Part shown: piece by piece, positions 39,506 to 40,114 of the stretch
Position numbering within the stretch: the stretch's first letter is position 1
Layout: every line of letters starts with the position of its first letter
Source: an uncultured Anaerolineales bacterium
Lineage (GTDB): Bacteria; Chloroflexota; Anaerolineae; B4-G1
Direction of reading: 5' to 3'
DNA length: 64,000 nucleotides
Assembly: GCA_964575455.1 (NCBI GenBank)
Contig: CAZNRX010000016.1
Coordinates: 445-64,444, forward strand
The notes under the pieces: model-generated
Database searches by the model: none
Told to the model about the DNA's origin: nothing
What the model saw: the letters and a program-made list of their open reading frames with translations, nothing else
Position numbers and translations under genes: made by a program

Positions 39506-39690
39506 CTTGGATCCTGGGGCTACACAGTATCCCGGGGCCTGAAGGTTGCCATCTCGACCGACGCCCACGGCACGGAGGAGTTGAGGTTTATGCAGTACGG
39601 CGTCTACCAGGCCCGTCGGGGCTGGCTGGAGCCCCAGGACGTGCTGAACACGAGAAGCTGGGACGAACTCAGGGAGCTTCTGGCGAGGTA
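39506..39690 (+). pseudogene. remnant of a PolX/PHP-domain protein C-terminus
   Basis: The same frame that ends the glucan synthase continues as ..VAISTDAHGTEELRFMQYGVYQARRGWLEPQDVLNTRSWDELRELLAR*. This matches the conserved C-terminal motifs of PHP-domain DNA polymerase X (TDAH...ARRGWL..VLNT). No N-terminal part is present. Confidence 0.5.
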
Positions 39691-39728
39691 ATGGCGCGAA
39701 ACGCGTAGGCGAAAAGGAGATTATCACG

Positions 39729-40114
39729 ATGTTCCCAATCGGAGACACCTTCGTCAGCCCGAGCAGCAGCTTGCCCAGCGTGGGCGCCAGCGGGGCGATT
39801 GGGGCGATCCTCGGCGCGTACATCGTGATGTTCCCCCGATCGCAGGTGCGCGTTCTGCTGCTGTTCGGATACTTTGTGGTCGTCCGCCGGGTCACAGCCG
39901 TCCTCTTCCTGGGCATAGGGTTCGTGCCGGGGTGCAGTTCTTCAGTGGGGTCGCCAGCCTGGGTGCGGAGACGGCGCAGACCGGCGGGGTGGCGGTGTGG
40001 GCCCACGTGGGAGGCTTCGTCTTCGGGTTGCTGATCGGCTTCCTGTTCAGAGGTCGGGCGGAGGGTCTGACGTTGGAGCGCGAGCCCCGGCGGGAACGGA
40101 GGATGCGTCTGTGA
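39729..40114 (+). pseudogene. rhomboid protease remnant (TM4-TM6 only, frameshifted)
   Basis: GASGAIGAILGAY (catalytic Ser motif GxSG) in one frame and [11 protein letters not shown] (catalytic His motif AHxGGxxxG) in another frame (ORFs 39729..40034 and 39932..40114). No TM1-3. Confidence 0.6.

What the first reader, a model, noticed from the sequence alone, without database searches (positions are those of the whole stretch)
39506..40114. Gene remnants (PolX PHP C-terminus, rhomboid TM4-6) directly abutting the glucan synthase stop; footprint of an insertion or rearrangement
The glucan synthase reading frame, after its stop, continues as a recognisable PolX/PHP C-terminal peptide (ISTDAHGTEEL..ARRGWLEPQDVLNT). 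A rhomboid protease survives only as TM4-TM6 split over two frames (GASGAIGAILGAY; [11 protein letters not shown]). This suggests that a large DNA block ending in the glucan synthase was inserted into, or recombined within, a polX-rhomboid-ligA DNA-maintenance locus.
Basis: partly seen in the sequence, partly recalled or inferred. Interest (0 to 1): 0.55.

Follow-up and report, generated by a model that had tools for sequence, protein, structure and literature searches.

The report
Deletion remnants of polX and rhomboid genes
Between a glucan synthase gene and the DNA ligase gene of an uncultured Anaerolineae bacterium lie the leftovers of a repair polymerase gene and a membrane protease gene, both gutted by recent local deletions; this is ordinary gene decay, not the scar of an inserted DNA block.

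Summary
Window 39533-39691 encodes the last 53 of about 580 residues of a PolX polymerase. It starts 27 nt after the glucan synthase (Cgs) stop, in the same frame. Window 39729-40114 is a rhomboid protease gene. It keeps its ribosome-binding site, ATG and first 7-10 codons, has lost 108 codons (TM1-TM3) in frame, and carries a +5-nt frameshift between TM5 and TM6.

The same junctions occur in a second strain from another metagenome (98.8% nt identity). They also occur in a 100%-identical contig from another sequencing run. This rules out an assembly artefact.

The insertion interpretation is not supported. Three relatives (LigA 81-82% identical) carry Cgs, then a 125-371-nt spacer, then full-length polX (one with a stop codon), an intact rhomboid and ligA. 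Cgs-polX adjacency is therefore ancestral. The junction arose from a deletion of about 1.7-1.9 kb.

The APP1-like gene downstream of ligA is also reduced, to 98 codons, by two in-frame deletions. No integrase, tRNA, flanking repeat or GC shift marks the upstream block. The remnants still show pN/pS of 0.11-0.22, the same as intact orthologues, so they are young pseudogenes. This is ordinary gene decay and of low interest.

The parts
30571..39505 (+). Cyclic beta-1,2-glucan synthase (Cgs/NdvB-type) gene, upstream neighbour of the remnants. In this window it is split into two frames (30571-32202 and 31964-39505) by an 8-nt deletion near 32095.
   Evidence: The two ORFs match A. tumefaciens Cgs 8rf0/8rf9, residues 77-562 and ~1255-2790. 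Pfam finds GH94 domains. L051 has one 2953-aa ORF and an extra TCTTCCTC at this point.
39506..39532 (+). 27-nt linker between the Cgs stop and the polX remnant. Its origin is unknown: residual spacer or filler at the deletion junction.
   Evidence: Local alignment to the Cgs-polX spacers and polX 5' ends of L052-L054 scores no better than shuffles. It is present in L051 with one SNP.
39533..39691 (+). polX pseudogene remnant: last 52-53 codons plus the TAA stop, equal to residues 528-580 of a 580-aa orthologue. It has no start codon of its own, lies in frame with Cgs, and holds only the last Asp and His (STDAH) of the nine PHP metal ligands.
   Evidence: IMG annotated the internal 33-aa ORF (39590-39691) as 'DNA polymerase (family 10)'.
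39692..39728 (+). Native polX-rhomboid intergenic spacer, with the rhomboid ribosome-binding site AAAGGAG.
   Evidence: The DNA alignment with L001 and L002 shows a conserved AAAGGAG followed by the ATG.
39729..39758 (+). Rhomboid pseudogene, retained 5' end: ATG plus the first 7-10 codons (MFPIGDT..). It is followed directly by the in-frame deletion junction, across which 108 codons (TM1-TM3, including the TM2 H-x4-N motif) are lost.
   Evidence: Rho residues 1-7 are 100% identical to the orthologue.
39759..39927 (+). Rhomboid pseudogene, TM4-TM5 segment with the catalytic-Ser motif GASG. It carries a W-to-G change at a conserved Trp (TGG to GGG).
   Evidence: Pfam PF01694 positions 60-102; alignments.
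39925..39934 (+). Frameshift site in the rhomboid pseudogene: CCGGGGTG replaces ATG, a net gain of 5 nt.
   Evidence: Comparison with L052, L053 and L054. L051 is identical at this site.
39935..40114 (+). Rhomboid pseudogene, TM6 and C-terminal segment with the catalytic-His motif AHVGG. It contains the ligA Shine-Dalgarno GGAGG (40098-40102) and ends in a TGA that overlaps the ligA GTG start (GTGA).
   Evidence: Pfam PF01694 positions 119-141; sequence. The 4-nt stop/start overlap is conserved in L002, L003 and L052-L054.
40111..42240 (+). ligA (NAD-dependent DNA ligase), intact. It is the gene that the decayed neighbours flank.
   Evidence: Full Pfam domain set. 98% identical to P0001 and 70-82% to the relatives.
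42282..42578 (+). Remnant of an APP1-like phosphatidate phosphatase gene. It is a 98-codon ORF made of residues 1-22, ~191-219 and ~341-391 of a 391-421-aa orthologue, produced by two in-frame deletions.
   Evidence: The second junction lies in an imperfect ~20-nt direct repeat.

Best explanation
The interval holds two young pseudogenes made by local deletions in an ancestral gene row cgs - polX - rhomboid - ligA - APP1-like. The host is an uncultured Anaerolineae (Chloroflexota) bacterium.

Shown:
- One deletion of about 1.7-1.9 kb removed the Cgs-polX spacer and polX codons 1 to ~527. This left 53 codons that happen to sit in the Cgs frame.
- A second, in-frame deletion removed 108 codons (TM1-TM3) from the rhomboid gene.
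- The rhomboid gene later acquired a +5-nt frameshift and a Trp-to-Gly change.
- Two further in-frame deletions cut the downstream APP1-like gene to 98 codons.
- All lesions are shared by two strains about 1.2% apart. All are absent from relatives about 20% apart.

Inferred:
- The deletions arose by slippage or illegitimate recombination between short direct repeats. This is visible for one APP1 junction only.
- The products are non-functional.
- The surviving 3' pieces persist because they are young, and because the rhomboid 3' end carries the Shine-Dalgarno sequence and the overlapping stop/start that serve the essential ligA. Deletions reaching further would not survive.
- ligA is probably transcribed by read-through from upstream. 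No promoter-like or terminator-like site lies between Cgs and ligA.
For: Remnant homology.

Intact polX-rhomboid-ligA in relatives.

Cgs immediately upstream of full-length polX in L052, L053 and L054.

BLASTN of L052 against the window shows collinear blocks interrupted only at the four deletions: 7373-9076, 9241-9647, 12133-12713 and 12797-13159 in L052 coordinates.

Identical junctions in L051 (another metagenome, 98.8% identical, with its own SNPs) and in Logan contig L056.

No other PolX, UDG or rhomboid piece in the window.

Direct-repeat junction in APP1 (GCGGCCTTCTAYCGSGCGCTG against GCGGCTATTCGCGCTCTG).

pN/pS of the remnants against L052-L054 is 0.11-0.22, against 0.06-0.38 for intact-intact pairs. 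Most of the divergence therefore accrued under constraint and the lesions are recent.

No promoter or terminator consensus and no meaningful repeats in 39300-40300. No tRNA or Rfam family. Flat GC content.

The neighbourhood is decay-prone. polX in L052 carries a stop codon. APP1 in L053 is independently truncated and frameshifted. The window has its own Cgs 8-nt deletion and a 14-nt insertion in the PRC gene.

PolX is rare and patchily distributed in bacteria, so its loss is tolerable (PMC12926913).
Against: The exact breakpoints of the polX and rhomboid deletions cannot be fixed. The nearest intact relatives are about 20% diverged, and the 27-nt linker has no recognisable source. Microhomology is demonstrated for one junction only.

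All three internal deletions are multiples of three (chance about 1 in 27). The rhomboid remnant has no SNP against L051 where about 3 are expected. Both hint at some constraint that plain neutral decay does not predict.

Loss of function is inferred from missing domains, not measured. Whether another polX copy exists elsewhere in the genome is unknown.
Confidence: 0.85

Rival explanations
1. First reader's model. A large block (htrA-usp-cgs, 28.3-39.5 kb) was inserted into, or recombined within, polX, leaving the polX 3' end at the block's right boundary.
For: More distant relatives (L002, L003, L005) have DUF4010-UDG-polX-rhomboid-ligA without the htrA-usp-cgs genes. The block is therefore an indel at a deeper level of the tree. 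The polX remnant starts only 27 nt after the Cgs stop.
Against: L052, L053 and L054 have Cgs followed by a full-length polX. L057, L058, L067 and L091 have DUF4010-(UDG)-HtrA-...-Usp-Cgs. The block was therefore in place with intact boundaries before polX was truncated. The upstream block encodes no integrase, has no tRNA or boundary repeat, and shows no GC deviation. The polX 5' part is absent from the left boundary and from the whole window.
Confidence: 0.04
2. Assembly or binning artefact: a chimeric contig, or collapsed reads, create apparent truncations.
For: The window is probably a metagenome-assembled genome. Logan contigs break at 39916 and 42559, close to lesions.
Against: The same junctions, down to the 5-nt insertion, occur in JGI contig Ga0374083_0024798 from another metagenome. 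That contig has its own SNPs. They also occur in a Logan contig of run SRR7048227. Microhomologies of 20 nt or less cannot collapse de Bruijn or overlap graphs.
Confidence: 0.02
3. The remnants are retained under selection. Either they are small proteins (33/61-aa PHP tail, 60-aa TM6 peptide, 98-aa mini-APP1), or they are translated 'scaffold' ORFs that deliver ribosomes to ligA by translational coupling.
For: Three of three internal deletions are in frame. The native start regions and stop regions are kept. The rhomboid stop overlaps the ligA start in all relatives. A GTG at 39932 opens a 60-codon ORF that ends on the ligA start, and IMG called it as a gene. pN/pS is low. There is no SNP in the rhomboid remnant between the two strains.
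Against: Low pN/pS is equally expected for young pseudogenes. The +5-nt frameshift breaks the ORF that starts at the native ATG. The polX remnant has no in-frame start before codon 29 of the 61-codon frame. The catalytic architecture is gone in all three genes. APP1 and polX decay in other ways in sister lineages. Expecting about 3 SNPs and seeing 0 is weak evidence.
Confidence: 0.08

Closest known systems
Bacterial/archaeal family X DNA polymerase with C-terminal PHP domain (PolX; e.g. Thermus thermophilus PolX PDB 3au2, Deinococcus radiodurans PolX 2w9m; NCBIfam NF006375)
   Same: Window 39533-39688 aligns to the extreme C-terminus of the PHP domain (ttPolX residues 519-567). It includes the STDAH motif with the last Asp and His metal ligands. 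It occupies the same position, upstream of rhomboid-ligA, as the full-length orthologues.
   Different: Only 53 of about 580 residues remain. The 8-kDa, fingers, palm and thumb domains are gone, and so are seven of the nine PHP ligands (motif HHDHEH[C/H]DH, PMC12926913). There is no start codon. It is a remnant, not a PolX, and not one of the described 'PolX-like' stand-alone PHP proteins.
Rhomboid intramembrane serine protease (Pfam PF01694, MEROPS S54; GlpG-type six-TM core)
   Same: It keeps the TM4 GxSG motif (GASG) and the TM6 AHxGG motif. The retained segments are 73-88% identical to intact 234-aa orthologues at the same locus.
   Different: TM1-TM3 are deleted (108 codons, including the TM2 HLISNM H-x4-N motif). 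The reading frame is broken between TM5 and TM6. A conserved Trp is replaced by Gly. It cannot form the six-helix core.
Bacterial pseudogenes formed by deletion between short direct repeats (replication slippage / illegitimate recombination; the general deletional bias of bacterial genomes, from established knowledge)
   Same: The gene pieces are syntenic with functional orthologues. There are several disabling lesions. One junction lies inside an imperfect ~20-nt direct repeat. Neighbouring genes and sister lineages show independent lesions.
   Different: Four deletions cluster within about 6 kb of ancestral sequence around one essential gene. All three internal deletions are in frame. This is unusual but statistically weak.

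Membership tests
PolX (family X DNA polymerase with PHP domain) | N-terminal 8-kDa and fingers HhH domains plus the Pol-beta palm and thumb | tested here: not met
   Intact orthologues hit PF14716, PF14520, PF14792 and PF14791. tblastn of a 580-aa orthologue against the whole window finds only residues 528-580.
PolX (family X DNA polymerase with PHP domain) | Complete PHP active site of nine His/Asp/Glu ligands (HHDHEH[C/H]DH) | tested here: not met
   Only the final D and H (STDAH) lie in the retained 53 residues. The motif is taken from PMC12926913 and PMC6616362.
PolX (family X DNA polymerase with PHP domain) | Significant sequence homology to the family | tested here: met
   NF006375 E=1e-12, below the 426-bit whole-protein cut-off because it is a fragment. 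3au2 E=4.7e-9. 75-82% identity to the orthologues' C-termini.
PolX (family X DNA polymerase with PHP domain) | Uninterrupted ORF with its own start | tested here: not met
   There is no ATG, GTG or TTG in frame between the Cgs TAG and codon 26 of the 61-codon frame.
Rhomboid protease (PF01694 / S54) | Six-TM core including TM2 with the H-x4-N motif and the L1 loop | tested here: not met
   Alignment to 234-aa orthologues shows residues ~8-117 missing, including FxHGGWxHLISNM.
Rhomboid protease (PF01694 / S54) | Catalytic Ser (GxSG, TM4) and catalytic His (TM6) in one polypeptide | tested here: not met
   Both motifs are present (GASG, AHVGG) but in different frames, separated by a +5-nt change.
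Rhomboid protease (PF01694 / S54) | Pfam gathering score reached | tested here: inconclusive
   Fragment A scores 26.2 bits against a cut-off of 22.6. Fragment B scores 22.1 bits, just below the cut-off.
Pseudogene / gene remnant | Homologous to a functional gene at the orthologous position in relatives | tested here: met
   polX-rhomboid-ligA-APP1 is intact in L001-L003, L005 and L052-L054.
Pseudogene / gene remnant | Disabling lesions reproducible in independent assemblies | tested here: met
   Identical junctions in L051 and L056.
Pseudogene / gene remnant | Relaxed selection (raised dN/dS) | tested here: inconclusive
   pN/pS is 0.11-0.22, no different from intact pairs. This fits a recent origin but does not itself show relaxation.
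   Cgs is adjacent to full-length polX in L052-L054. The polX 5' part is not at the left boundary.
   The upstream genes are HtrA, Usp and Cgs only. There are no tRNAs. No significant repeats at 39300-40300. GC is 0.63-0.68, like the flanks.

The most novel reading that the evidence does not exclude
The clustered internal deletions are in frame, and each keeps the native translation start and the stop/start overlap with the next gene. On this reading that pattern is not chance. Selection would preserve translated 'scaffold' mini-ORFs, or micro-proteins, whose only role is to keep ribosome delivery and operon expression for the essential ligA. polX and the APP1-like gene would be lost repeatedly and adaptively in this Anaerolineae clade.
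Probability: 0.08. Interest if true: 0.45.

Novelty: already known. Interest (0 to 1): 0.15.

Why it matters
The main value is for annotation and for reading this window correctly.
- The 33-aa ORF that IMG labels 'DNA polymerase (family 10)' and the 60-aa ORF upstream of ligA are pseudogene pieces.
- This lineage has lost the PolX encoded next to ligA, and it lacks the UDG gene that some related contigs carry further upstream in the row. Unless another copy exists elsewhere, it has lost part of its base-excision-repair equipment.
- The glucan synthase block should not be treated as a horizontally acquired island on this evidence.
- The locus is a clean, multiply confirmed example of stepwise deletional decay around an essential gene in an uncultured Chloroflexota population. 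It adds no new biology.

Tried and rejected
- Pfam on the 61-aa PolX piece gave nothing. NCBIfam and the PDB sequence search were needed.
- Exact-product look-ups of the 101-aa, 60-aa and 98-aa window ORFs found nothing. The DUF72 protein and the 33-aa ORF did locate Logan and JGI contigs.
- I tested whether the 27-nt linker derives from the polX translation-initiation region (an apparent GGGCT...CAGTAT match). Local alignment scores were no better than shuffles, so the idea was rejected.
- I tried to fix microhomology at the polX and rhomboid junctions from L052-L054. The relatives are too diverged, and only the second APP1 junction is convincing.
- I looked for the polX 5' half, UDG or other pieces elsewhere in the window. 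There are none.
- I looked for promoters, terminators, repeats, tRNAs and Rfam families around the junctions. There are none.
- The dN/dS test for relaxed constraint was uninformative, as expected for young lesions.
- A homology search with the 53-aa remnant found no near-identical full-length PolX, meaning no strain with the undeleted allele. The word index returned only 8 short candidates, so this is a weak negative.

Full report
**1. What is in the sequence**

The long ORF ending at 39505 is the C-terminal 2513 codons of a cyclic beta-1,2-glucan synthase.
- It carries GH94 domains.
- It matches Agrobacterium Cgs 8rf0/8rf9 end to end.

After its TAG stop the same frame stays open for 61 codons. 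From codon 10 onward (window 39533) this frame is PolX.
- It matches NCBIfam NF006375 positions 517-568 of 571, E=1e-12.
- It matches T. thermophilus PolX 3au2 residues 519-567 of 575, E=4.7e-9.
- Pfam alone saw nothing.

Two frames carry rhomboid (PF01694) signal.
- 39729-39920 matches profile positions 60-102, E=1e-5.
- 39932-40111 matches profile positions 119-141, E=2e-4.

The rhomboid TGA overlaps a GTG at 40111 that starts ligA, and a GGAGG lies 8 nt upstream. LigA has its full domain set.

**2. Relatives: the ancestral locus**

A LigA-anchored scan of species-representative genomes places the window in Anaerolineae (Chloroflexota). The best matches are 70-75% identical.

L001, L002, L003 and L005 carry full-length polX (573-613 aa), a 234-250-aa rhomboid and ligA. 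The rhomboid stop overlaps the ligA start by 4 nt where gene coordinates were listed (L002, L003). L006, L007 and L010 have polX directly followed by ligA.

Aligning the window pieces to these genes gives the anatomy.
- Of polX, only residues 528-580 of 580 survive.
- The rhomboid keeps its RBS, ATG and MFPIGDT. It then jumps to ...VSPSSSLPSVGASG (TM4), an in-frame loss of 108 codons.
- The lost stretch includes the TM2 motif HGGWxHLISNM.
- Between TM5 and TM6 the relatives read TTCGTS-ATG-CAG, whereas the window reads TTCGTG-CCGGGGTG-CAG. This is a net +5 nt, and the neighbouring conserved Trp codon has become GGG.

**3. Closer relatives decide between insertion and deletion**

A protein search with LigA found a 98%-identical protein and several at 81-82%. 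Their contigs are informative.

L051 (JGI 3300035158, contig Ga0374083_0024798) has the window's arrangement. It reads Usp, then Cgs as a single 2953-aa ORF, a 33-aa ORF, a 60-aa ORF, then ligA.
- It is 98.8% identical in DNA.
- It has exactly the same junctions and the same 5-nt insertion.
- Only three SNPs fall across 39440-40130.

L052 comes from the same metagenome (LigA 82% identical). L053 comes from NCBI MAG GCA_964421785.1 (81%). L054 comes from JGI 3300022699 (81%).
- All three read Cgs, then a 125-371-nt spacer, then polX, then a 234-253-aa rhomboid, then ligA.
- polX is 580 aa in L053 and L054.
- In L052 polX is interrupted by one in-frame stop, EEI*QRTP.

BLASTN of L052 against the window is collinear from Cgs to beyond 51 kb. 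It is broken only by four gaps in the window.
- L052 7373-9076: spacer plus polX 5' part.
- L052 9241-9647: rhomboid 5' part.
- L052 12133-12713: APP1-like gene.
- L052 12797-13159: APP1-like gene.

Cgs and polX were therefore already neighbours, with intact boundaries, before polX was truncated. The junction at 39505/39533 is a deletion scar, not the edge of an inserted block.

**4. The deeper history of the upstream block**

A DUF4010-anchored scan of metagenome contigs shows three arrangements.
- DUF4010-HtrA-(radical SAM, ZIP)-Usp-Cgs in L057, L058 and L067.
- DUF4010-UDG-(PolX-N-like gene)-HtrA-...-Usp-Cgs in L091, and as far as HtrA in L069.
- DUF4010-UDG-polX-rhomboid-ligA in L002 and L003. 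L005 has the same order, but no UDG match was found there.

The htrA...cgs segment is thus an old presence/absence difference among lineages. It is unrelated to the truncation.

The upstream genes show no signs of mobility.
- GC is unremarkable at 0.63-0.68.
- The only genes are HtrA, Usp and Cgs.
- There are no tRNAs in the window.
- No Rfam family lies between 26 and 46 kb.
- No meaningful repeats lie around the junctions.
- No polX 5' piece or UDG exists anywhere in the window.

**5. Not an artefact**

Besides L051, which is a different strain with its own SNPs, two Logan contigs match the window exactly.
- L056 (run SRR7048227) is 100% identical to window 38409-39916. It spans the Cgs stop, the linker, the polX remnant and the rhomboid deletion junction.
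- L050 (run SRR7048220) is 100% identical to 42559-44784.

**6. More decay in the same neighbourhood**

- The gene after ligA is a 391-421-aa APP1-like phosphatidate phosphatase in relatives (PF09949).
- In the window it is a 98-codon ORF (42282-42578) made of residues 1-22, ~191-219 and ~341-391. Two in-frame deletions produced it.
- The second APP1 junction sits in an imperfect direct repeat. L052 reads GCGGCCTTCTATCGGGCGCTG at one site and GCGGCTATTCGCGCTCTG at the other. This is the signature of slippage or illegitimate recombination.
- The window strain alone has an 8-nt deletion that splits Cgs near 32095. L051 reads GPFFLFHRERLWN there.
- The window strain alone also has a 14-nt insertion that splits a double PRC-barrel gene.
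- L053 has independently truncated and frameshifted its APP1 gene.
- L051 has a shortened baeRF gene.

**7. Age and function**

pN/pS between the window remnants and L052-L054 is 0.11-0.22. Intact-intact pairs over the same codons give 0.06-0.38. Nearly all the divergence therefore accumulated while the genes were functional.

The lesions are younger than the roughly 20% nucleotide split from L052-L054. They are older than the roughly 1.2% split from L051.

Functionally, the polX piece keeps 2 of the 9 PHP ligands and has no polymerase core. The motif is taken from PMC12926913 and PMC6616362. The rhomboid has lost three of six helices, and its Ser and His lie in different frames. I conclude that both are dead.

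PolX is rare and patchy in bacteria (PMC12926913), and no universal PolX operon partner is known (PMC9226535). Its loss is therefore unsurprising.

Two points are inference only.
- The rhomboid 3' end must persist because it carries the ligA Shine-Dalgarno sequence and the coupled stop/start.
- ligA is probably read through from upstream, because no promoter-like or terminator-like site lies in 39300-40300.

**8. Residual oddities**

- All three internal deletions are in frame (about 1 in 27 by chance).
- The rhomboid remnant has no SNP against L051, where about 3 are expected.
- The 27-nt linker has no identifiable source.

These leave a small probability that translation through the remnants still matters for ligA expression. 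I rate that at about 0.08.

**9. Verdict**

It is wrong on mechanism, which is deletion rather than insertion or rearrangement. This is ordinary, already known biology (deletional pseudogenisation). Interest is 0.15.

Noticed in passing
window 32056-32110 (Cgs ORFs 30571-32202 and 31964-39505): The glucan synthase gene is itself frameshifted in this strain. An 8-nt stretch (TCTTCCTC) that L051 has between GGGGCCGTT and CCACCGC is missing. This splits the 2953-aa protein at the conserved FLFHRERLWN motif.
   Followed up: yes
window 42282-42578: A 98-codon ORF is the remnant of a 391-421-aa APP1-like phosphatidate phosphatase, produced by two in-frame internal deletions. The second junction lies in an imperfect ~20-nt direct repeat. 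L053 lost the same gene independently, by a different truncation plus a frameshift.
   Followed up: yes
window 42703-43565 (insertion at ~43074-43087): A double PRC-barrel gene is a single 250-264-aa ORF in L051-L054. Here it is split into two overlapping ORFs by a 14-nt insertion (TGGGCCGAGACGCC) that L051 lacks.
   Followed up: partly
window 31444-31480, 32364-32404, 35619-35689: Cgs contains 15-nt in-frame tandem repeats, including (MQDLH)x4.7. Copy numbers differ from L051: the window has one more unit at 35633 and 60 nt fewer at 31466.
   Followed up: partly
window 44383-45195: A 159-nt x2 tandem repeat lies at 44856-45177. L051 lacks 189 nt and 290 nt in this stretch. The ORFs here have no Pfam hits.
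   Followed up: no
L052 7499-9235: polX of the 82%-LigA relative carries an in-frame stop (EEI*QRTP; orthologues read EELRQRTP). This suggests an independent, fresh inactivation of polX in a sister lineage from the same metagenome, or a sequencing error.
   Followed up: partly
L002 6562-7449, L091 1546-2427, L069 ~12558-12980: A ~293-aa gene encodes only PolX-like N-terminal HhH domains (PF14716 and PF14520, no palm hit and no PHP). It sits next to a uracil-DNA glycosylase gene, between DUF4010 and HtrA or polX, in several relatives. It is absent from the window.
   Followed up: partly
window 29579-29585, compared with L058 12587-14490 and L091 3788-5237: Relatives carry radical-SAM and/or ZIP-transporter genes between HtrA and Usp. 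In the window HtrA and Usp are only 7 nt apart and no remnant is left.
   Followed up: partly
window 48787-49986, compared with L051 18189-18812: The baeRF-family gene is 399 aa in the window and 389 aa in L052, but only 207 aa in L051, which lacks about 570 nt. This is another strain-level deletion.
   Followed up: no
window 40000-40500: 14 of the 121 SNPs between the window and L051 cluster in the first ~400 nt of ligA, while the adjacent rhomboid remnant has none. This may be a small recombination tract.
   Followed up: no
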